Counted from the first letter of the stretch, positions 1 to 4,401 are shown. The stretch: DNA of 4,401 bases from a virus (IMGVR_UViG_2529292907_000005); one strand, 5' to 3'. Notes: generated by a model from the sequence alone, not told the origin. Translations and numbers: made by a program.

Positions 1-1
1 A

Positions 2-2182
2 TCAGCCAGCGAGGCGGCAACTCATGCGACTGATGCTGCAGGCTCAGCACGTGCAGCCAGCACGTCAGCCGGACAGGCCGCGTCGTCGGCTCAGTCAGCG
101 TCTTCCAGCGCAGGAACGGCATCGACAAAGACCCGTGAAGCAGCAAAAAGTGCTGCTGCTGCAGAGTCATCAAAAAGCGCGGCAGCTACCAGCGCCAGTG
201 CCGCGAAAACGTCAGAAACGAATGCCGCAGCATCACAAAAATCGGCAGCCACTTCTGCATCCACAGCGACCACGAAGGCGTCAGAAGCTGCCACCTCGGC
301 ACGGGGTGCGGCGGCCTCAAAAGAGGCAGCGAAATCTTCAGAAACGAATGCATCATCAAGTGCCAGTAGTGCAGCTTCCTCGGCAACGGCGGCAGGAAAT
401 TCCGCGAAGGCGGCAAAAACGTCCGAGACGAACGCTAAGTCTTCTGAAACAGCAGCGGGACAGAGCGCCTCAGCTGCGGCAGGTTCAAAAACAGCGGCTG
501 CATTATCTGCCAGTGCCGCGTCAACAAGTGCCGGGCAGGCCTCAGCCAGTGCCACCGCCGCCGGAAAATCGGCAGAAAGCGCCGCATCATCCGCTTCAAC
601 AGCCACAACGAAGGCTGGCAAAGCCACTGAGCAAGCCACTGCAGCAGCGAGGTCTGCTTCTGCAGCAAAAACCTCTGAAACAAATGCAAAGACTTCAGCA
701 GACAATGCTGCTTCCTCTAAGGCGGCAGCCGCATCGTCAGCCAGTTCAGCGGCGTCATCGGCATCATCTGCGTCTGCTTCAAAAGATGAGGCGACCAGAC
801 AAGCGTCAGCAGCGAAAGGTAGTGCCACGACAGCAACAACGAAAGCATCAGAGGCGGCAGGCAGTGCGACGGCTGCATCTCAGAGCAAAGTTGCTGCTGA
901 ATCCGCGGCAACGCGCGCCGAGACAGCAGCAAAACGGGCAGAGGATATTGCATCCGCCGTGGCGCTGGAGGATGCGAGCACGACGAAAAAGGGGATAGTA
1001 CAGCTCAGCAGTGCGACCAACAGCACTTCCGAGTCACTGGCGGCAACGCCAAAAGCGGTTAAGGCGGTAATGGATGAAACGAACAAGAAAGCCCCATTAA
1101 ACAGCCCGGCACTGACCGGAACGCCAACAACACCAACTGCGCGACAGGGAACGAATAATACCCAAATCGCAAGCACGGCTTTCGTTATGGCTGCGATTGC
1201 CGCCCTTGTAGATTCGTCACCTGATGCACTGAACACGCTGAACGAGCTGGCTGCGGCGCTGGGCAACGACCCGAATTTTGCGACCACCATGACTAACGCG
1301 CTTGCGGGTAAGCAACCGAAAGATGCCACCCTGACGGCGCTGGCCGGACTTACTACTGCGGCAGGCAAGTTTCCGTATTTTACGGGGAATGATGTCGCCA
1401 GCCTGGCAACCCTGACAAAAGTCGGGCGGGATATTCTTGCGAAATCGACCGTTGCTGCCGTTATCGAATACCTCGGTTTACGAGAACTCGGCACAAGCGG
1501 GGAGAAAATACCGTTACTCAGTACAGCGAATACCTGGACTAATCGACAAACATTCAGCGGTGGCCTTTCAGGTGAACTATCCGGCAATGCTTCTACAGCT
1601 GCAAAATTAAAAACTGCCAGGAAAATAAGCAATGTGGCTTTTGATGGTTCCTCCGATATCACATTAAAAGCAAGTCATGTTGGTGCGTTTGCCTTAGGGA
1701 AAACAGGAAGCACCGTTGCGAATGATAAAGCAGTTGGATGGAACTGGAGTAGCGGAGCCTATAACGCAACTATTAGTGGTGCATCAACGTTAATTATTCA
1801 TTTTTATATGGGAGAAGGAAGTTGTCCTGCAGCTCAGTTTCGGATTAATTATAAAAATGGCGGTATTTTTTATCGTTCAGCCCGTGATGGTTATGGTTTT
1901 GAAGCCGACTGGTCAGAGTTTTACACCACGACCCGCAAACCCTCTGCGGGAGATGTTGGTGCATACACGCAGGCAGAATGTAACTCAAGGTTTATTACAG
2001 GTATTCGCCTTGGCGGTCTGTCATCTGTTCAGACATGGAATGGTCCCGGCTGGTCTGACAGGTCAGGTTATGTCGTTACGGGTTCAGTTAACGGAAACCG
2101 TGATGAATTAATTGATACAACTCAGGCAAGGCCAATTCAGTATTGCATTAATGGGACGTGGTATAACGCGGGGAGTATTTAA
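2..2182 (+). CDS. stf: Side tail fibre protein, 5'-partial: Ala/Ser/Thr-rich repeat shaft followed by a variable C-terminal (receptor-binding) domain; the start codon lies upstream of the window
   Basis: Frame 2 is open from the window edge to TAA at 2180..2182. The ORF track shows only 959..2182 because there is no in-frame ATG/GTG/TTG before the GTG at 959. My translation of 2..958 gives low-complexity repeats (...SAAKTSETNAKSSETAAGQSASAAAGSKTAAALSASAASTSAGQASASATAAGKSAESAASSASTATTKAG...), which I recognise as the lambdoid Stf-type shaft. The ORF continues through ...KFPYFTGNDVASLATLTKVGRDILAKSTVAAVIEYLGL and ends ...RPIQYCINGTWYNAGSI. Family assignment is from memory, not a search. Confidence 0.9.
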   Translation, partial: SASEAATHATDAAGSARAASTSAGQAASSAQSASSSAGTASTKTREAAKSAAAAESSKSAAATSASAAKTSETNAAASQKSAATSASTATTKASEAATSARGAAASKEAAKSSETNASSSASSAASSATAAGNSAKAAKTSETNAKSSETAAGQSASAAAGSKTAAALSASAASTSAGQASASATAAGKSAESAASSASTATTKAGKATEQATAAARSASAAKTSETNAKTSADNAASSKAAAASSASSAASSASSASASKDEATRQASAAKGSATTATTKASEAAGSATAASQSKVAAESAATRAETAAKRAEDIASAVALEDASTTKKGIVQLSSATNSTSESLAATPKAVKAVMDETNKKAPLNSPALTGTPTTPTARQGTNNTQIASTAFVMAAIAALVDSSPDALNTLNELAAALGNDPNFATTMTNALAGKQPKDATLTALAGLTTAAGKFPYFTGNDVASLATLTKVGRDILAKSTVAAVIEYLGLRELGTSGEKIPLLSTANTWTNRQTFSGGLSGELSGNASTAAKLKTARKISNVAFDGSSDITLKASHVGAFALGKTGSTVANDKAVGWNWSSGAYNATISGASTLIIHFYMGEGSCPAAQFRINYKNGGIFYRSARDGYGFEADWSEFYTTTRKPSAGDVGAYTQAECNSRFITGIRLGGLSSVQTWNGPGWSDRSGYVVTGSVNGNRDELIDTTQARPIQYCINGTWYNAGSI
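195..690 (+). repeat. Degenerate in-frame repeats inside the stf shaft region, built on a ~21-nt unit encoding K-[TS]-S-E-T-N-A
   Basis: Four copies of the motif AAA-[AT]C[GTC]-TC[ACT]-GA[AG]-AC[GA]-AA[TC]-GC are seen near 196, 331, 417 and 668 (gcgaaaacgtcagaaacgaatgc, gcgaaatcttcagaaacgaatgc, gcaaaaacgtccgagacgaacgc, gcaaaaacctctgaaacaaatgc). They sit within a longer Ala/Ser-rich low-complexity region spanning about 1..960. Confidence 0.6.
1222..1481 (+). repeat. Left arm of a long inverted repeat (partner 4142..4401), lying in the stf constant region just outside the crossover site
   Basis: Direct comparison of + 1222..1481 with the reverse complement of 4142..4401 shows the inner 116 bp (1366..1481 vs 4257..4142) identical and the outer 144 bp differing at about nine positions by eye. 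Homology stops abruptly at 1482 (cGAgaaCtCg vs cAGgaaAtGg). Confidence 0.9.
1461..1486 (+). other. Putative serine-invertase crossover site (gix/pix/cix/hix-like), left copy, with core dinucleotide at 1473..1474
   Basis: TTATCGAATACC-TC-GGTTTACGAGAA is an imperfect 12-2-12 palindrome matching the TTATC..AAACC-NN-GGTTT..GATAA pattern of DNA-invertase sites as I recall them. It lies exactly at the boundary between flank homology and the divergent cassette. Confidence 0.7.
2168..2175 (+). promoter_or_regulatory. Ribosome-binding site for tfa (GCGGGGAG), about 9 nt upstream of the ATG; translationally coupled to stf (stop at 2180..2182, start at 2185)
   Basis: Purine-rich GGGGAG at 2170..2175 sits at canonical spacing from the ATG at 2185..2187. 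Confidence 0.55.
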
Positions 2183-2184
2183 TT

Positions 2185-2718
2185 ATGCAGCACTTAAAAA
2201 ACATTACTGCTGGCAATCCTAAAACAAAAGAGCAATACCAGCTAACAAAGCAATTTAACATCAAATGGCTTTATTCAGATGATGGAAAAAACTGGTATGA
2301 GGAACAAAAGAATTTCCAGCCAGACACATTGAAAATGGCCTATGACCATAACGGCGTTATTATTTGTATTGAAAAGGATGTTTCAGCAATTAATCCGGAA
2401 GGCGCAAGCGTCGTTGAATTACCTGATATTACAGCAAATCGCCGTGCTGACATTTCGGGTAAATGGATGTTCAAAGATGGCGTAGTGGTAAAGCGAACTT
2501 ATACCGAGGAAGAGCAGAGGCAGCAGGCGGAAAATGAAAAGCAAAGCCTGCTACAGCTCGTCAGGGATAAAACCCAGCTATGGGACTCACAGCTACGGCT
2601 GGGCATCATTTCCGACGAGAATAAACAAAAATTAACAGAGTGGATGCTCTTTGCGCAGAAAGTCGAATCTACAGACACTTCCAGCCTGCCAGTAACGTTT
2701 CCCGAACAACCTGAATGA
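2185..2718 (+). CDS. tfa: Tail fibre assembly protein (Tfa-type chaperone), 177 aa
   Basis: Intact ORF from the track, starting 2 nt after the stf stop with a good RBS. The protein ([22 protein letters not shown]...[30 protein letters not shown]...) matches my memory of enterobacterial phage Tfa proteins, and its position immediately downstream of a tail fibre gene fits. Confidence 0.9.
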   Translation: MQHLKNITAGNPKTKEQYQLTKQFNIKWLYSDDGKNWYEEQKNFQPDTLKMAYDHNGVIICIEKDVSAINPEGASVVELPDITANRRADISGKWMFKDGVVVKRTYTEEEQRQQAENEKQSLLQLVRDKTQLWDSQLRLGIISDENKQKLTEWMLFAQKVESTDTSSLPVTFPEQPE

Positions 2719-2721
2719 GAC

Positions 2722-2748
2722 AAGGCCCGCTATCGGGCCTTAATTTTT
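2722..2748 (+). terminator. Intrinsic terminator hairpin between the convergent tfa genes (8-bp GC-rich stem AAGGCCCG / CGGGCCTT, 4-nt loop, then AATTTTT)
   Basis: Perfect inverted repeat at 2722..2729 and 2734..2741 followed by a T-run at 2744..2748, located in the 28-bp gap between the tfa stop (2716..2718) and the tfa' stop (2747..2749). The U-tract is good only for the + strand direction. Confidence 0.6.
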
Positions 2749-3273
2749 ATTCAGGCTTTTGTGGCCATTCGGGATTTGCTGTATCCACACGGCTGACCAG
2801 AACGCTGTAGCGTTCCCATGACTCCAGTCGTGCGCGCTCCTCATCCGTCGCCATGTTCAGCCTGACAGCGCGTTCCAGTGGCTGGATAACTGATTCAGCT
2901 TCGGAAAGTAATGCGGCCTTTTGTGATTTGGCCTGTTGTTGCTGTTCGTCTGCCGTATAAATCCGCTTAACTACAGCCCCGTCCTTAAACATCCACTTAC
3001 CTGAATCATCGGCACGGCGATTAGCTGTAATATCAGGAACTTCAACGACGCTATAGCCTTCAGGGTTAAGCGTGGAGGCATCTTTGGTGATGGCGACAAT
3101 AATATTATTCTCGTCATAAAGAATTTTTATTGTGTCTTCCTGAAAGTTCTTTAATTCCTCGTACCAGTTTTTCCCATCTTCTGACCACAACCAGATAACA
3201 TCAAAATTCTTTGTTAGCTGATATTGCTCTTTTGTTTTAGGATTGCCAGCAGTAATGTTTTTAAATGCTGCAT
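2747..3273 (-). CDS. tfa: Second tail fibre assembly protein (tfa'), frame-disrupted as sequenced: the ATG at 3273..3271 encodes MQHLK, then a one-base-shorter poly-A tract shifts the frame (stop at 3216..3214); the homologous frame is open from 3190 to the stop at 2749..2747
   Basis: The reverse complement of 3273..3250 is ATGCAGCATTTAAAAACATTACTG, against ATGCAGCACTTAAAAAACATTACTG in the + copy at 2185. The other frame reads ...[36 protein letters not shown]... and matches the track ORF 2747..3190, whose listed start is a TTG. The C-terminal part (...[35 protein letters not shown]...[30 protein letters not shown]) is Tfa-like. Confidence 0.8.
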
Positions 3274-3276
3274 GAT

Positions 3277-4092
3277 TTATACCTGTGCAACGTTATACCA
3301 TGTGCCATTGATGTATTTTTGTATTGGTCTGAACACAGCCGGATCATCGCCATCAACTTCGCCGACAATGCCAAGCCCCGTAATTGCATGGCCTGATTTT
3401 TCATACATCACGCCTCTTTGCATAGTTTGAACAACACGCGTGCCAAGTCTGACATCTCTCACATAGCGTGAATCAAAATTCCCCCAGTTGCTGGGTTGTA
3501 TCTGACCGTTTACAGCAAATATCACCGAGTTATCTGTATTTCGCTGACTATAGAAATGCCAGCCTGAATCATCACCAAGCTCTGCAACAGTTGGTCTTGA
3601 TGAAGCGCCCCATAAATTAAACCCTACGTTCTTCGTGGAGTTGTTGGAGCTGGATAGCGTGAATTTTTTACCATCCCCAGCCTGAATATTTTTAAAAGCA
3701 ATAGCCACTCCATTCTGAAAGCGGAATACACGCTGACTATTAGCATAAACATCAAGAATACCGTCTCCATTCTGTTTAAATCCGGTATCATTATCACCAA
3801 GAACAATAGAGCTACCACCTAACGCATTCGTCGTACCAACTCCAAGGCTGCCATTAATGACGGCATTAACAAGAATATTTAGCGCATCCCATTTCAGCGT
3901 CATCAGGTCTTTTGTTGTGGTGCTTTGTTTGCTTCTCCATTTGAAATATTCATTGCCGTTGTCGCCTGTTTCAAACCACATGTATGAATCAGTGTCACCA
4001 TCGGCATCATTTTTAAATCCAATCTTCGCCCAGTCAGTATTTCGAATCCAGGCAAGGATTGAGTCATTTTCAAAAGTAAGCCCACCGGACAA
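3277..4092 (-). CDS. Alternative tail-fibre C-terminal variable domain (inverted cassette); the frame is open upstream to 4116 but is not in frame with the fibre constant region as sequenced
   Basis: Track ORF of 271 aa, whose listed start is a TTG at 4092..4090, ending ...[17 protein letters not shown] with the same C-terminal motif as the + strand fibre. Upstream in this frame it reads RRAKNGDTL before a stop at 4119..4117. It is followed 3 nt later by the tfa' ATG. Confidence 0.8.
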
Positions 4093-4401
4093 AGTATCGC
4101 CATTTTTTGCACGGCGTTACCAGCCCTGTTTACCATTTCCTGTAAACCGAGGTATTCGATAACGGCAGCAACGGTCGATTTCGCAAGAATATCCCGCCCG
4201 ACTTTTGTCAGGGTTGCCAGGCTGGCGACATCATTCCCCGTAAAATACGGAAACTTGTCTGCCGCAGTAGCAAGCCCGGCCAGCGCCGTCAGGGTGGCAT
4301 CTTTCGGTTGCTTACCCGCAAGCGCGTTAGTCATGGTGGTCGCAAAATTCGGGTCGTTTCCCAGCGCCGCCGCTAACTCGTTCAGCGTATTCAGTGCGTC
4401 A
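3900..4401 (-). CDS. Inward-reading tail-fibre constant-region copy, 5'-partial (continues beyond the right edge); it reads through the crossover site and, because of the frame problem at 4103..4108, runs into a stop at 3902..3900
   Basis: The reverse complement of 4401..4142 encodes DALNTLNELAAALGNDPNFATTMTNALAGKQPKDATLTALAGLATAADKFPYFTGNDVASLATLTKVGRDILAKSTVAAVIEYLGL, near-identical to + strand residues encoded at 1222..1481. It then continues QEMVNRAGNAVQK and an out-of-frame tail (MAILCPVG...QQKT*). Confidence 0.65.
4137..4162 (-). other. Putative serine-invertase crossover site, right copy, with core dinucleotide at 4149..4150
   Basis: The + strand reads TTCCTGTAAACC-GA-GGTATTCGATAA; the minus strand reads TTATCGAATACC-TC-GGTTTACAGGAA. 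It has the same outer half-site and core as the left site and differs at 2 positions in the inner half-site. My recollection is that it is very close to the Mu gix sequence. Confidence 0.7.
4142..4401 (-). repeat. Right arm of the long inverted repeat (partner 1222..1481); it reaches the window edge, so its true length is unknown
   Basis: See the left arm: 116 bp identical plus 144 bp with about nine mismatches. Confidence 0.9.

What the first reader, a model, noticed from the sequence alone, without database searches (positions are those of the whole stretch)
1..1500. Mosaic fibre gene: G+C-rich Ala/Ser-repeat shaft joined to a visibly more A+T-rich exchangeable tip module
The first ~1 kb is dominated by GCN/TCN codons and reads as a lambdoid Stf-like shaft. 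From about 1500 onward, including both tips and both tfa genes, the sequence is clearly more A+T-rich with different codon usage. The composition break lies close to the crossover site. This fits tip-plus-chaperone cassettes being acquired horizontally and plugged onto a resident shaft.
Basis: partly seen in the sequence, partly recalled or inferred. Interest (0 to 1): 0.45.

Follow-up and report, generated by a model that had tools for sequence, protein, structure and literature searches.

The report
Mosaic tail fibre with invertible tips
This is the far end of a prophage tail-fibre gene whose receptor-binding tip can be swapped by flipping a DNA segment, assembled from pieces shared with phages lambda, P2, Mu and P1; it is a textbook case of modular phage evolution, and most of the shaft's high G+C comes from its alanine/serine-rich protein sequence.

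Summary
The raw G+C step is real: 0.58 before about nt 1430 and 0.45 after it, 2LLR 67 against a null maximum of 16. It has two different causes. The Ala/Ser/Thr shaft (2-958, 75% A+S+T) is G+C-rich only at codon positions 1 and 2 (GC2 0.81). Its GC3 of 0.43 is not clearly different from the tips (0.35-0.38). The only silent-site G+C-rich block is 953-1537 (GC3 0.58). That block is P2 gpH-like, not lambda-like, and it ends at a gix/cix-type crossover site (1461-1486, partner 4137-4162).

Database hits are incongruent:
- 1-958 matches only lambdoid Stf.
- 969-1486 matches P2-like gpH best.
- 1684-4162 matches the Mu G, P1 C and P2 H/G cassettes at 88-92% nt and 90-97% aa.

Prophages with the same shaft carry different distal parts, and some have the same tip in the flipped orientation, with reciprocally exchanged half-sites. 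The cassette idea is therefore right, but "resident shaft 2-1470 plus acquired tips" is too simple, because another joint lies at 1015-1051.

All of this is already known biology (Haggard-Ljungquist 1992; Sandmeier 1992, 1994).

Caveat: the window is a complete 4.4-kb draft contig and may be a chimera of two prophage loci. Both off-orientation genes carry 1-nt homopolymer deletions.

The parts
2..958 (+). Ala/Ser/Thr-rich low-complexity 'shaft' of a lambdoid side tail fibre (Stf). The ORF runs off the window start; window nt 2 corresponds to about codon 137 of the full gene.
   Evidence: Open frame 2. 75% A+S+T, GC2 0.81, GC3 0.43. Matches only lambdoid Stf genes: 88-90% to mEp460, PhiR and ev099, and 85% to lambda over 25-501. 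99.6% to the E. coli 042 'prophage tail fiber N-terminal domain-containing protein' in a J-lom-stf-tfa context.
959..1486 (+). Non-repetitive constant block of the fibre, P2 gpH-like. It is the only block with host-like silent-site G+C.
   Evidence: GC3 0.57 and fourfold-site GC 0.62. GC3 change points after nt 952 and nt 1537. Best hits are Peduoviridae gpH at 89-93%; lambda Stf reaches only 79.7%.
1015..1051 (+). Inferred homologous-recombination joint between the lambdoid part and the P2-like part. It lies inside the conserved fibre motif (..GIVQLSSATNSTSESLAATPKAVKAV..) that both lineages share over 969-1065.
   Evidence: There are no mismatches to E. coli 042 in 56-1014 and many from 1015 on. 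Mismatches to 12E115 and 15A are dense in 969-1051 and nearly absent from 1052. Lambdoid matches end at 1062-1065 and P2-like matches start at 969-998. Mu S (5yvq) shares the same motif.
1222..1486 (+). Left arm of the inverted repeat. It is the constant side of the fibre and lies outside the invertible segment except for the inner half-site.
   Evidence: 265 nt, 96% complementary to 4137-4401. 11 mismatches at 1225-1365 and 1482-1483.
1461..1486 (+). Left crossover site of Gin/Cin/Pin type: TTATCGAATACC TC GGTTTACGAGAA, with the central TC at 1473-1474.
   Evidence: Aligns with Mu gix TTATCCAAAACCTCGGTTTACAGGAA and with P1 cix. Two matches in the window against 0 in 200 shuffles. Relatives in the opposite orientation show reciprocal exchange of the half-sites.
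1487..2182 (+). Tip 1, the receptor-binding C-terminal part now fused in frame to the fibre. It is Mu S'/P1 Sv'-like (the 'G(-)' type).
   Evidence: In frame with 2-1486. Residues encoded from about nt 1685 are 91.5% identical to Mu Sv' and 89.7% to P1 Sv'. PDB 8ju3 (Mu S/S') gives E 1e-109. GC3 0.35.
2185..2718 (+). tfa1, the tail-fibre assembly chaperone for tip 1 (Mu U'/P1 U'-like).
   Evidence: Pfam Caudo_TAP PF02413, E 1.8e-36. 95.5% identical to Mu U' and 96.6% to P1 U'.
2722..2741 (+). Terminator-like G+C-rich hairpin (AAGGCCCG-CTAT-CGGGCCTT followed by AATTTTTATT) in the 28-nt gap between the convergent tfa genes.
   Evidence: It is the strongest of the terminator-like sites. The overall number of such sites is not above chance, so its function is inferred from position only.
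2747..3273 (-). tfa2, the chaperone for tip 2 (Mu U/P2 G-like), in the off orientation. Its frame is broken at codon 6 by a T6->T5 run at 3258-3262.
   Evidence: Caudo_TAP, E 2.5e-36. The 1-nt gap is seen against every relative. With one T restored it is 175 aa, 100% identical to the 12E115 tfa, 92% to P2 G and 94% to Mu U.
3277..4136 (-). Tip 2, the alternative receptor-binding part (P2 gpH C-terminus / Mu S-like, the 'G(+)' type), in the off orientation. Its frame is broken 14 codons after the crossover site by a T7->T6 run at 4103-4108.
   Evidence: The 1-nt gap is seen against 15A, 12E115, P2 and P88_4B11. With one T restored, 4400..3277 reads as 374 collinear residues, 93% identical to P2 gpH 296-669. 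PDB 5yvq (Mu S) gives E 1.4e-63. GC3 0.38.
4137..4162 (-). Right crossover site. On the minus strand it reads TTATCGAATACC TC GGTTTACAGGAA, with the centre at 4149-4150.
   Evidence: Its outer half-site is the fibre-side type (TTATCGAATACC). It is not the invertase-side type (TTATCTAAAACC) found in canonical loci.
4137..4401 (-). Right arm of the inverted repeat: an inverted second copy of the constant fibre block, running off the contig end.
   Evidence: Region 4142-4401 is 100% identical to the constant block of the P2-like fibre gene of E. coli 12E115 and 15A, whereas the left arm differs from it at 9 sites.

Best explanation
What it is. The window holds the distal 726 codons of a lambdoid side-tail-fibre gene, followed by a Gin/Cin/Pin-type invertible host-range segment of about 2.68 kb, running from the crossover centre at 1473-1474 to the one at 4149-4150. 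The segment carries two convergent cassettes, each a receptor-binding tip plus its own Tfa chaperone:
- tip1/tfa1 corresponds to Mu S'/U'.
- tip2/tfa2 corresponds to Mu S/U and P2 H-C-terminus/G.

How it works. This part is inferred from the Mu/P1 paradigm. A serine invertase encoded outside the window cuts at the central TC of the two inverted 26-bp sites and flips the segment. The constant part of the fibre is then fused in frame to one tip or the other, and only that tip and its chaperone are transcribed. In this sequence the S'/U'-type cassette is 'on'.

Why the composition looks as it does. The fibre is a patchwork of at least four pieces with different histories:
1. 2-~1014: lambdoid Ala/Ser/Thr shaft. 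Its raw G+C is high only because of GCN/TCN/ACN codons, and its silent sites are A+T-rich.
2. ~1052-1486: P2 gpH-like constant block, with host-like silent G+C.
3. 1487-1684: proximal part of the tip, found in Xuanwuvirus-type and E. coli prophages.
4. 1685 onward: cassettes shared with Mu, P1 and P2, with A+T-rich silent sites.

The sharp silent-site step at 1486 and its mirror at 4137 are the boundaries of the invertible cassettes.

How the pieces move. This is inferred from breakpoint positions. Cassettes move between lambdoid, P2-like, Mu-like and P1-like phages by homologous recombination in short conserved fibre and chaperone motifs, and plausibly also by invertase action at the crossover sites.
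For: Anatomy:
- One open frame over 2..2182.
- Inverted repeat 1222-1486 / 4137-4401.
- Crossover sites matching gix and cix, with 0 of 200 shuffles giving any match.
- Both chaperones are Caudo_TAP, E about 2e-36.
- The tips match the solved Mu S' and Mu S structures' sequences, E 1e-109 and 1e-63.
- Protein identities to the Mu, P1 and P2 counterparts are 90-97%.

Inversion in nature:
- Lambdoid prophage contigs L040, L039 and L022 have the same constant block joined to the tip2-type half-site.
- In those contigs tip1 lies 2.4-3.1 kb away on the other strand, next to a Gin-like invertase.
- Their half-sites are exchanged exactly at the central TC.

Invertase next to the segment in canonical relatives.

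Composition. Neighbouring tail genes of the carriers have GC3 0.58-0.69 against 0.35-0.45 for tips and tfa.

Incongruent histories:
- The shaft matches lambdoid phages only.
- The middle block matches P2-like fibres best.
- The cassettes match Mu, P1, P7, D108, D6 and P2.
- The shaft is present at >=80% coverage in 3631 of 5426 E. coli genomes, but the full cassette pair in only 150. The nearest relatives of each (>=99%) sit in different prophage types, 042 being lambdoid and 12E115 and 15A being P2-like.
- Of 37 prophage contigs sharing the 60-mer at 950-1009, 19 diverge at 1062 and 7 at 1963. The rest diverge at 1481 or reach a contig end.

Literature: transfer of stf and tail-fibre genes among unrelated phages is called 'well documented' and linked to invertases (PMC3945230, citing Haggard-Ljungquist 1992 and Sandmeier 1992, 1994). 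The Mu G(+)/G(-) host-range switch is described in PMC4406740.
Against: - No invertase gene, promoter or fibre N-terminus lies in the window, so a working switch cannot be shown for this DNA.
- Both off-orientation genes are frameshifted as sequenced. After inversion the fibre would stop 55 codons past the site, unless the two deletions are sequencing errors.
- The right-hand site has a fibre-type outer half-site followed by a second inverted copy of the constant block, instead of an invertase flank. This is not the canonical layout.
- The window is a complete draft contig, and no complete E. coli genome has the whole arrangement at more than 92.4%.
- Low silent-site G+C does not identify a donor. 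The direction and mechanism of each exchange are inferred.
Confidence: 0.85

Rival explanations
1. A resident, G+C-rich lambdoid shaft (2-1470) of one origin has received foreign A+T-rich tip and chaperone cassettes, with the only joint at the composition break near 1500.
For: There is a raw G+C step at about 1430-1500. The cassettes are shared with Mu, P1 and P2. Several prophages with the same 1-1481 diverge exactly at the crossover site.
Against: Shaft GC3 is 0.43, not clearly different from the tips, so its raw G+C is due to amino-acid composition. A second joint lies at 1015-1051, and 969-1486 is P2-like rather than lambda-like. Shaft GC3 is far below the neighbouring J and lom genes, and the shaft is much more conserved than J among carriers, so it is itself a mobile module.
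Confidence: 0.2
2. Assembly chimera. The particular combination in this 4.4-kb contig is an artefact. The assembler passed from a lambdoid fibre locus A into a P2-like prophage locus B lying in the flipped orientation, through the near-identical stretch 1366-1914. The two 1-nt deletions in T runs are homopolymer sequencing errors. The biology of each parent locus is unchanged.
For: - The window is the entire contig AIFW01000052.1 of draft assembly GCA_000249615.2.
- The left arm carries the alleles of lambdoid contigs L019, L032, L034 and L040, with no mismatches over 1109-1481.
- Everything from no later than 1915 to 4401 follows 12E115 and 15A. The right arm is 100% the P2-like constant block.
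- L019-type loci diverge from the window at 1915-1963.
- Both outer half-sites are of the fibre-side type.
- The same 'constant block on both sides' layout occurs in draft contig L028 with identical arms.
- It also occurs in E. coli 15A as a perfect 17,495-bp palindrome bounded by the segment. Both look like fold-back assembly at a segment present in both orientations.
- Both indels lie in homopolymers and are absent from all relatives.
Against: No reads or sister contigs could be examined. A real recombination between two prophages would give the same sequence. Both indels fall in the silent cassette, which is also what relaxed selection would produce.
Confidence: 0.4
3. A real product of recombination between prophages. 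In the source genome a lambdoid Stf gene and a P2-type H gene converge on one shared invertible segment. This could arise from invertase-mediated or homologous recombination between two prophages in inverted orientation, that is, a chromosomal inversion. Each flip would then swap the tips of two different phages' fibres at once.
For: The sequence layout is the same as in the chimera case. A convergent layout is also present in the finished genome of E. coli 15A. Pin-family invertases act in trans on sites in other prophages (PMC12529663).
Against: None of 5426 complete E. coli genomes has the lambdoid-to-P2-like convergent arrangement. The 15A palindrome has 100% identical arms and a truncated end, which suggests an artefact. 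The source assembly is a fragmented draft.
Confidence: 0.13
4. No horizontal origin is needed. The A+T-rich tips simply reflect functional constraints (beta-rich, Gly/Asn/Ile-rich receptor-binding domains and weakly expressed genes) within one vertically inherited fibre gene.
For: Amino-acid composition does differ between parts and explains the shaft's raw G+C.
Against: The step is strongest at silent and fourfold-degenerate sites (z=4.6 and 3.9). The cassettes are about 90% identical in nucleotides across lambdoid, P2-like, Mu-like and P1-like phages whose other genes are unrelated. The same shaft is joined to different tips.
Confidence: 0.03

Closest known systems
Phage Mu G segment (S, U, U', S' with Gin invertase)
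   Same: Two convergent tip-plus-chaperone cassettes lie between inverted 26-bp sites with a central TC; gix differs from the window sites at 3 of 26 positions (left site 5 of 26). Region 1684-4162 is about 91% identical in nucleotides. tfa1 is 95.5% identical to U', tfa2 94% to U, and the distal part of tip1 91.5% to S'. The window is in the Mu G(-)-like state.
   Different: The constant part is a lambdoid Stf with a P2 H-like block, unrelated to Mu Sc apart from one short motif. Tip2 is only 44% identical to Mu S and is of the P2 H type. The repeat is >=265 bp and lies outside the sites, against 34 bp in Mu. No gin gene lies in the window.
Phage P1/P7 C segment (Cin) and p15B Min region
   Same: The S'/U'/U cassettes are the same at about 89% nt. 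The inner half-site plus the following codons (GGTTTA(C/A)GAGAACTCGG(C/T)AC) are almost identical to P1 cix. Long inverted repeats accompany the sites. Relative L032 has several tfa-like genes, which recalls the multi-cassette Min region.
   Different: In P1 the 0.6-kb repeats lie inside the segment, with cix at their outer ends. Here the sites lie at the inner ends of the repeat. P1 Sc is unrelated to the Ala/Ser shaft.
Phage P2 tail fibre H and assembly protein G (no inversion)
   Same: Region 969-1481 is 89% nt identical to H, and 2747-4401 is 88.5% nt identical to H-G. With one T restored, the minus strand reads as 374 residues collinear with gpH 296-669 at 93%. tfa2 is 92% identical to gpG.
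   Different: P2 has one fixed tip and no invertase. Its H N-terminus attaches to a myovirus baseplate, whereas here the N-terminal side is lambdoid Stf.
Xuanwuvirus-type P2-like prophages (P88_4B11, 503458; E. coli 12E115, 15A)
   Same: These are the nearest relatives of everything from 1052 to 4401: 99.2-99.8% in 15A and 12E115, about 90% in the phages. They have the canonical order H-tfa-tfa'-tip'-invertase.
   Different: Their fibre N-terminal halves are P2-like, not the lambdoid Ala/Ser shaft. Their right-hand site has the invertase-side half-site TTATCTAAAACC or TTATTTAAAACC.
Lambda Stf/Tfa and lambdoid prophage Stf (E. coli 042; mEp460; Rac/Qin/e14 stf-tfa-pin regions)
   Same: The shaft 1-1062 is 98.5% identical to the 042 Stf (99.6% over 1-958), 90% to mEp460 and 85% to lambda over 25-501. 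Relatives show J-lom-stf-tfa synteny. Pin-type inversion of stf tips in E. coli prophages is described for e14 (PMC12529663).
   Different: Lambda and 042 have a single, different tip with its Tfa and no inversion. The lambda Stf middle block is only 79.7% identical. The e14 crossover repeats quoted in PMC12529663 (TTGGTTTGGGAGAAGG) differ from the sites here.

Membership tests
Gin/Cin/Pin/Hin-type invertible tail-fibre segment (Mu G, P1 C, e14 P) | Two inverted about 26-bp crossover sites matching the gix/cix consensus, with an identical central dinucleotide | tested here: met
   The sites are 1461-1486 (+) and 4137-4162 (-), both TTATCGAATACC-TC-GGTTTAC..GAA. They were aligned to Mu gix and P1 cix. 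Two matches occur in the window and 0 in 200 shuffles.
Gin/Cin/Pin/Hin-type invertible tail-fibre segment (Mu G, P1 C, e14 P) | A serine DNA invertase gene, with its internal enhancer, adjacent to the segment | not testable with these tools
   The contig ends at 4401, inside the right repeat arm. Relatives have an invertase directly beside the segment: L007, L008 and L048, and L040, L039 and L022 with a Gin-like product at 72-74%. In L002 it is truncated.
Gin/Cin/Pin/Hin-type invertible tail-fibre segment (Mu G, P1 C, e14 P) | The constant 5' part of the fibre gene lies outside the segment and is fused in frame to either of two alternative 3' parts | tested here: inconclusive
   The on orientation is in frame across the site. 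The off orientation would be in frame only if the T run at 4103-4108 had 7 T, as in all relatives. As sequenced, the frame breaks 14 codons after the site.
Gin/Cin/Pin/Hin-type invertible tail-fibre segment (Mu G, P1 C, e14 P) | Each alternative tip is followed by its own tail-fibre assembly gene, with the two cassettes convergent | tested here: met
   tfa1 at 2185-2718 (+) and tfa2 at 2747-3273 (-) are both Caudo_TAP. tfa2 has a 1-nt deletion at codon 6.
Gin/Cin/Pin/Hin-type invertible tail-fibre segment (Mu G, P1 C, e14 P) | Both orientations occur, with reciprocal exchange at the site centre | tested here: met
   This was shown in near-identical relatives, not in this DNA. L040, L039 and L022 carry tip1 flipped, with half-sites swapped exactly at the TC.
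Gin/Cin/Pin/Hin-type invertible tail-fibre segment (Mu G, P1 C, e14 P) | One site is flanked by the fibre's constant part and the other by non-fibre (invertase) DNA | tested here: not met
   Both outer half-sites are of the fibre-side type, and both are followed by >=240 nt of the constant block. This is atypical and is either a draft-assembly artefact or a real convergent arrangement.
Lambdoid side tail fibre Stf | N-terminal 'prophage tail fibre N-terminal' domain and J-lom-stf-tfa synteny | not testable with these tools
   The N-terminus lies about 136 codons upstream of the contig start. Contigs and genomes sharing the shaft at 98-99.6% have it, with J and lom upstream.
Lambdoid side tail fibre Stf | Ala/Ser-rich central region homologous to lambda Stf | tested here: met
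   84.9% nt identity to lambda over 25-501, and 88-90% to lambdoid phages over 1-958. 73.6% aa identity to Ur-lambda Stf residues 145-352.
Caudo_TAP tail-fibre assembly proteins (lambda Tfa, Mu U/U', P2 G) | Pfam PF02413 above the gathering score, with the gene immediately downstream of the fibre gene | tested here: met
   125.6 and 125.1 bits against a cut-off of 22.1. The gaps to the fibre stop codons are 2 and 3 nt.
P2 gpH-type fibre distal half | Collinear homology to gpH across the constant block and the tip | tested here: met
   After the single T is restored, 374 residues are 93% identical to gpH 296-669. As sequenced, the frame is interrupted.

The most novel reading that the evidence does not exclude
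The contig is not a chimera. It records a real arrangement in which a lambdoid Stf gene and a P2-type H gene of a second prophage face each other across a single shared invertible segment. Such an arrangement would be produced by invertase-mediated or homologous recombination between two prophages. One flip would then re-tip the fibres of two unrelated phages simultaneously and would mark a prophage-to-prophage chromosomal inversion.
Probability: 0.12. Interest if true: 0.5.

Novelty: already known. Interest (0 to 1): 0.15.

Why it matters
It matters little as a discovery. Mosaic tail fibres with invertible tip and chaperone cassettes shared among lambda, P2, Mu and P1 have been textbook material since 1992-1994, and such loci are routinely annotated in E. 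coli prophages.

The practical lessons are methodological:
1. Raw G+C steps in fibre genes should be read at silent sites. An Ala/Ser/Thr-rich shaft mimics 'G+C-rich DNA'.
2. Composition breaks and phylogenetic joints need not coincide. Here the newest joint (1015-1051) lies about 450 nt upstream of the break.
3. Short draft contigs that span invertible segments can carry fold-back or cross-prophage joins and homopolymer errors, so fine-scale mosaic claims need long-read confirmation.

For host-range engineering, the window gives a clean natural example of a lambdoid shaft carrying Mu/P2-type receptor-binding modules.

Tried and rejected
- A Pfam scan of the 726-residue fibre fragment found no family at E<=0.01, probably because of the low-complexity shaft. 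The collection's precomputed gp37_C hit for the 370-aa called gene was not reproduced, so I did not use it.
- TRF found only three tiny arrays, so I rejected 'tandem repeat' as a description of the shaft.
- The exact 60-mer search in one-genome-per-species contigs found nothing.
- The look-up of the 271-aa tip2 ORF found nothing, presumably because the gene caller used another start.
- The 1992 J Bacteriol papers of Haggard-Ljungquist and Sandmeier are not held. They are cited only through the text and reference list of PMC3945230.
- The promoter and terminator scans were not above chance overall. Only the hairpin at 2722-2741 is mentioned, as positional inference.
- I looked for a second pair of crossover sites at the outer ends of the repeat, as in the P1 layout, and found none in the window.
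- GC3 values for Mu Sv' and P1 Sv' may be out of frame and were not used.
- I did not run structure prediction, because monomer models of trimeric fibres would not bear on the question.

Full report
WHAT THE WINDOW IS

The 4401 bases are the whole of contig AIFW01000052.1 of the NCBI draft assembly GCA_000249615.2. Both window ends are therefore assembly breaks.

On the + strand, frame 2 is open from nt 2 to the stop at 2182. It is followed by a 177-aa gene at 2185-2718.

On the - strand lie a second gene of the same family (2747-3273) and a second fibre-tip ORF (3277-4136).

A 265-nt inverted repeat (1222-1486 against 4137-4401, 96% complementary) brackets these genes and runs off the contig end.

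CHECKING THE OBSERVATION

The raw G+C step exists. G+C is 0.56-0.61 up to about 1500, 0.36-0.52 from there to about 4100, and 0.55 again in the right repeat arm. The best single change point is after nt 1430 (0.583 against 0.451; 2LLR 67 against a shuffle maximum of 16).

The first 319 codons are 75% Ala+Ser+Thr.

Splitting G+C by codon position changes the picture:

| Segment | GC1 / GC2 / GC3 | Fourfold-site GC |
|---|---|---|
| Shaft 2-958 | 0.54 / 0.81 / 0.43 | 0.44 |
| Block 959-1486 | GC3 0.57 | 0.62 |
| Inverted copy 4137-4400 | GC3 0.60 | 0.71 |
| tip1 | GC3 0.35 | not cited |
| tip2 | GC3 0.38 | not cited |
| tfa genes | GC3 0.45-0.47 | not cited |

From these numbers:
- 81% of the raw difference between shaft and tip1 comes from codon positions 1 and 2, that is, from the protein sequence.
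- 72% of the difference between 959-1486 and tip1 comes from position 3.
- GC3 of the shaft is not clearly different from the tips (z=1.9 and 1.05).
- GC3 of the shaft is significantly lower than that of 959-1486 (z=-3.15).
- GC3 of 959-1486 is much higher than that of tip1 (z=4.6).

A change-point scan on third positions of the fibre ORF finds two steps: after nt 952 (0.42 -> 0.58) and after nt 1537 (-> 0.33).

The 'G+C-rich shaft' is therefore largely an effect of GCN/TCN/ACN codons. The real silent-site anomaly is a 0.5-kb G+C-rich island flanked by A+T-rich sequence on both sides. The 'repeat' is low-complexity sequence with a degenerate 33-nt motif encoding AAKTSETNA, not a tandem array.

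ANATOMY OF THE SWITCH

The inner ends of the repeat arms are 26-bp sites:
- 1461-1486: TTATCGAATACC-TC-GGTTTACGAGAA
- 4137-4162 on the minus strand: TTATCGAATACC-TC-GGTTTACAGGAA

They line up with Mu gix (TTATCCAAAACCTCGGTTTACAGGAA) and with P1 cix. A degenerate version of the pattern matches only these two places, and no match occurs in 200 shuffles.

Both small genes are Caudo_TAP tail-fibre assembly proteins, E about 2e-36.

Identities of the cassette products:

| Product | Closest counterparts |
|---|---|
| tip1, from about nt 1685 | 91.5% Mu S', 89.7% P1 Sv'; matches the sequence of solved structure 8ju3 at E 1e-109 |
| tfa1 | 95.5% Mu U', 96.6% P1 U' |
| tip2 | matches Mu S (5yvq) at E 1e-63; with the constant block, 93% collinear identity to P2 gpH 296-669 |
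| tfa2 | 92% P2 G, 94% Mu U, 100% the E. coli 12E115 protein |

This is a Mu G / P1 C-type host-range switch, and the window is in the Mu G(-)-like state. In Mu, S/U particles infect E. coli K-12, and S'/U' particles infect E. coli C, Citrobacter, Shigella sonnei and others (PMC4406740).

The mechanism is inferred from that paradigm. A serine invertase cuts at the central TC, the segment between 1473-1474 and 4149-4150 flips, and the constant part becomes fused to the other tip.

Direct support comes from relatives. Lambdoid prophage contigs L040, L039 and L022 have the same constant block, but joined to the tip2-type half-site. In them, tip1 lies 2.4-3.1 kb away on the other strand, next to a Gin-like invertase. 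It carries the invertase-side outer half-site TTATCTAAAACC. This is a reciprocal exchange exactly at the centre of the site.

SEPARATE HISTORIES OF THE PARTS

Phage records:
- The shaft 1-958 matches only lambdoid siphophage Stf genes: 88-90% to mEp460, the PhiR series and ev099, and 85% to lambda itself over 25-501.
- The block 969-1486 matches P2-type gpH best (89-93%). Lambda Stf reaches only 79.7%.
- Region 1684-4162 matches Mu, D108, P1, P7, D6 and SfMu at 88-92%.
- Region 2747-4401 matches P2 H-G at 88.5%.
- Region 1457-4401 matches the Xuanwuvirus-type P2-like phages at about 90%.
- No phage record covers more than 67% of the window.

Complete E. coli genomes (5426 in total):
- The shaft is present at >=80% coverage in 3631 genomes, and at >=99% identity in 422 records.
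- The complete cassette pair is present in 150 genomes, and at >=99% in 4 records.
- Both together in one place occur in 33 genomes, at no more than 92.4% identity.
- The nearest shaft (E. coli 042) sits in a J-lom-stf-tfa lambdoid prophage with a different single tip and no inversion system.
- The nearest cassettes (12E115, 15A) sit in P2-like prophages ordered V-W-J-I-H-tfa-tfa'-tip'-recombinase.

Mismatch maps place the joint:
- The window is identical to 042 over 56-1014.
- It is almost identical to 12E115 and 15A from 1052 on.
- Both comparisons show mismatches in 1015-1051.
- This stretch lies inside a conserved fibre motif that the lambdoid, P2 and Mu fibres share.

Among 37 IMG/VR prophage contigs that contain the exact 60-mer 950-1009, 19 follow the window to 1062 and then diverge. 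Seven follow it to 1963 and then diverge. The rest stop at the crossover site (1481) or at a contig end. Where the upstream DNA is held, these contigs are lambdoid, with J, lom and the Stf N-terminus upstream.

Exchange of tips on one shaft is therefore directly visible, with recurrent joints at about 1015-1065, at 1481-1486, at 1684 and at about 1915-1963.

IS THE SHAFT 'RESIDENT'?

Probably not in any strong sense.
- In lambdoid carriers the neighbouring tail genes have GC3 of 0.66-0.67 (J) and 0.58-0.60 (lom). The whole stf of 042 has 0.44 and its tfa 0.45.
- P2-like V, W, J and I have 0.58-0.69, against 0.35-0.45 for tips and chaperones.
- Among carriers, J identity to the 042 J ranges from 69% to 99%, while the Stf N-terminus stays at 97-100%.

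The entire stf-tfa region behaves as a mobile host-range module. The 959-1486 block is the only part whose silent-site composition is like the host's and the tail operon's.

WHAT IS ODD ABOUT THIS PARTICULAR CONTIG

1. Both outer half-sites are of the fibre-side type, and the right-hand site is followed by an inverted second copy of the constant block instead of an invertase flank. That right arm is 100% identical to the constant block of the P2-like fibre of 12E115 and 15A. The left arm differs from it at 9 positions (1225-1365) and carries the alleles of the lambdoid contigs L019, L032, L034 and L040.

2. L019-type lambdoid loci follow the window only to 1914. From no later than 1915, the window follows the P2-like loci.

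The simplest reading is that the contig joins a lambdoid locus A to a P2-like locus B lying in the flipped orientation. The join would fall somewhere in the near-identical stretch 1366-1914, which contains the crossover site. This could be an assembler's path through a repeat. It could also be a real recombination between two prophages. The sequence alone cannot tell these apart.

Two observations favour an artefact:
- Draft contig L028 has identical constant blocks on both sides of the segment.
- The finished genome of 15A has a perfect 17,495-bp palindrome bounded exactly by the segment, with a truncated gene at its outer end.

Either way, the general conclusion does not depend on this contig. 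Complete genomes such as E. coli 90-9280 show J-lom-Stf with this shaft, a Mu/P2-type cassette pair and a recombinase remnant in one lambdoid prophage.

3. Relative to every homologue, the window lacks one T in two homopolymer runs: T5 instead of T6 at 3258-3262, and T6 instead of T7 at 4103-4108. The first breaks tfa2 at codon 6. The second breaks the alternative fibre 14 codons after the crossover site. These may be homopolymer sequencing errors or real decay of the silent cassette.

COMPARISON WITH WHAT IS KNOWN, AND NOVELTY

Every element has a named precedent:
- the Mu G segment with Gin;
- the P1/P7 C segment with Cin, and p15B Min;
- the e14 P segment with Pin;
- P2 H/G;
- lambda Stf/Tfa.

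Horizontal transfer of these fibre parts among unrelated phages, and a role for invertases in it, is described as 'well documented' in PMC3945230. That paper cites Haggard-Ljungquist et al. 1992 and Sandmeier et al. 1992 and 1994; I could not read those papers themselves. Trans-acting Pin invertases on prophage stf segments are described in PMC12529663. Tail-fibre genes are enriched among programmed inversions (PMC9881135).

The finding is therefore correct in spirit but ordinary: already known. The useful corrections are these:
- The shaft's G+C is an amino-acid effect.
- The silent-site G+C-rich island (about 953-1537) is P2-like and is bounded by two joints.
- The composition break marks the cassette boundary at the crossover site.
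- The specific join in this draft contig needs physical confirmation.

VERDICT

- Observation: partly confirmed.
- Interpretation: partly supported.
- Novelty: already known.
- Interest: 0.15.
- Most novel reading not excluded: a real two-prophage convergent arrangement sharing one invertible segment. Probability about 0.12; interest if true 0.5.

Noticed in passing
window 3258-3262 and 4103-4108: Two single-base deletions in T runs (T5 instead of T6, T6 instead of T7) relative to all homologues examined. Each frameshifts one of the two off-orientation genes: tfa2 at codon 6, and the alternative tip 14 codons after the crossover site. They may be homopolymer sequencing errors or real decay of the silent cassette.
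   Followed up: partly
window 4137-4401 (compared with 1222-1486): The right repeat arm lies outside the invertible segment and is a second, inverted copy of the constant fibre block. It is 100% identical to the P2-like fibre of E. coli 12E115 and 15A, but 9 sites different from the left arm. Both outer half-sites are of the fibre-side type, so the contig looks like a lambdoid locus joined to a flipped P2-like locus.
   Followed up: partly
L050 (NZ_CP077477.1, E. coli O111:H21 15A) 6333-23827 vs 26490-43984: A perfect 17,495-bp inverted duplication of most of a P2-like prophage flanks exactly the 2.66-kb invertible segment, with a truncated replication-endonuclease gene at one outer end. It is either a fold-back assembly artefact at an invertible segment or a very recent inverted duplication.
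   Followed up: partly
L028 1-195 and 3085-3279: An independent draft prophage contig also has the constant fibre block on both sides of the segment. Its arms are identical except for the inner half-site, as expected if an assembler merged reads from both orientations of one locus.
   Followed up: partly
L032 5366-9027: A lambdoid prophage with the same shaft and constant block has an enlarged region with four tfa-like stretches and tip1 in the inverted orientation. This suggests a multi-cassette (Min/shufflon-like) inversion region.
   Followed up: no
window 91-828 (-) and 24-998 (+): Long spurious ORFs (245 and 324 aa) run through the Ala/Ser shaft in other frames. The collection's gene calls for this contig include 91-828 (-) and start the fibre only at 1070. 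This is a gene-calling artefact of the GCN-rich low-complexity sequence on a truncated contig.
   Followed up: partly
window 2194-2541 vs 2918-3265: The N-terminal two-thirds of the two tfa genes form a 348-nt inverted repeat (74% complementary) and are A+T-rich (G+C 0.40-0.43). The C-terminal thirds are unrelated and richer in G+C (0.48-0.56). This internal repeat could itself support homologous inversion or exchange of chaperone halves.
   Followed up: no
window 2722-2741: A hairpin of 8 pairs (6 G-C) followed by AATTTTTATT lies in the 28-nt gap between the convergent tfa genes. It is a plausible terminator for the expressed cassette, but terminator-like sites overall are not above chance.
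   Followed up: no
phage records PV340575.1 (PhiR68_1) and PV340576.1 (PhiR68_2): Two phages whose names suggest a common strain series carry the modules separately. The Mu-like PhiR68_1 has the tip cassettes (90.7%) and the lambdoid PhiR68_2 has the shaft (89.7%). Such co-occurrence could give the chance for exchange.
   Followed up: no
L003 (mEp460_ev081) 7838-8428: This lambdoid phage has a serine recombinase directly after a single stf-tfa pair, and no second cassette was detected by homology to the window. It may be a remnant of an inversion system or a segment with unrelated cassettes.
   Followed up: no
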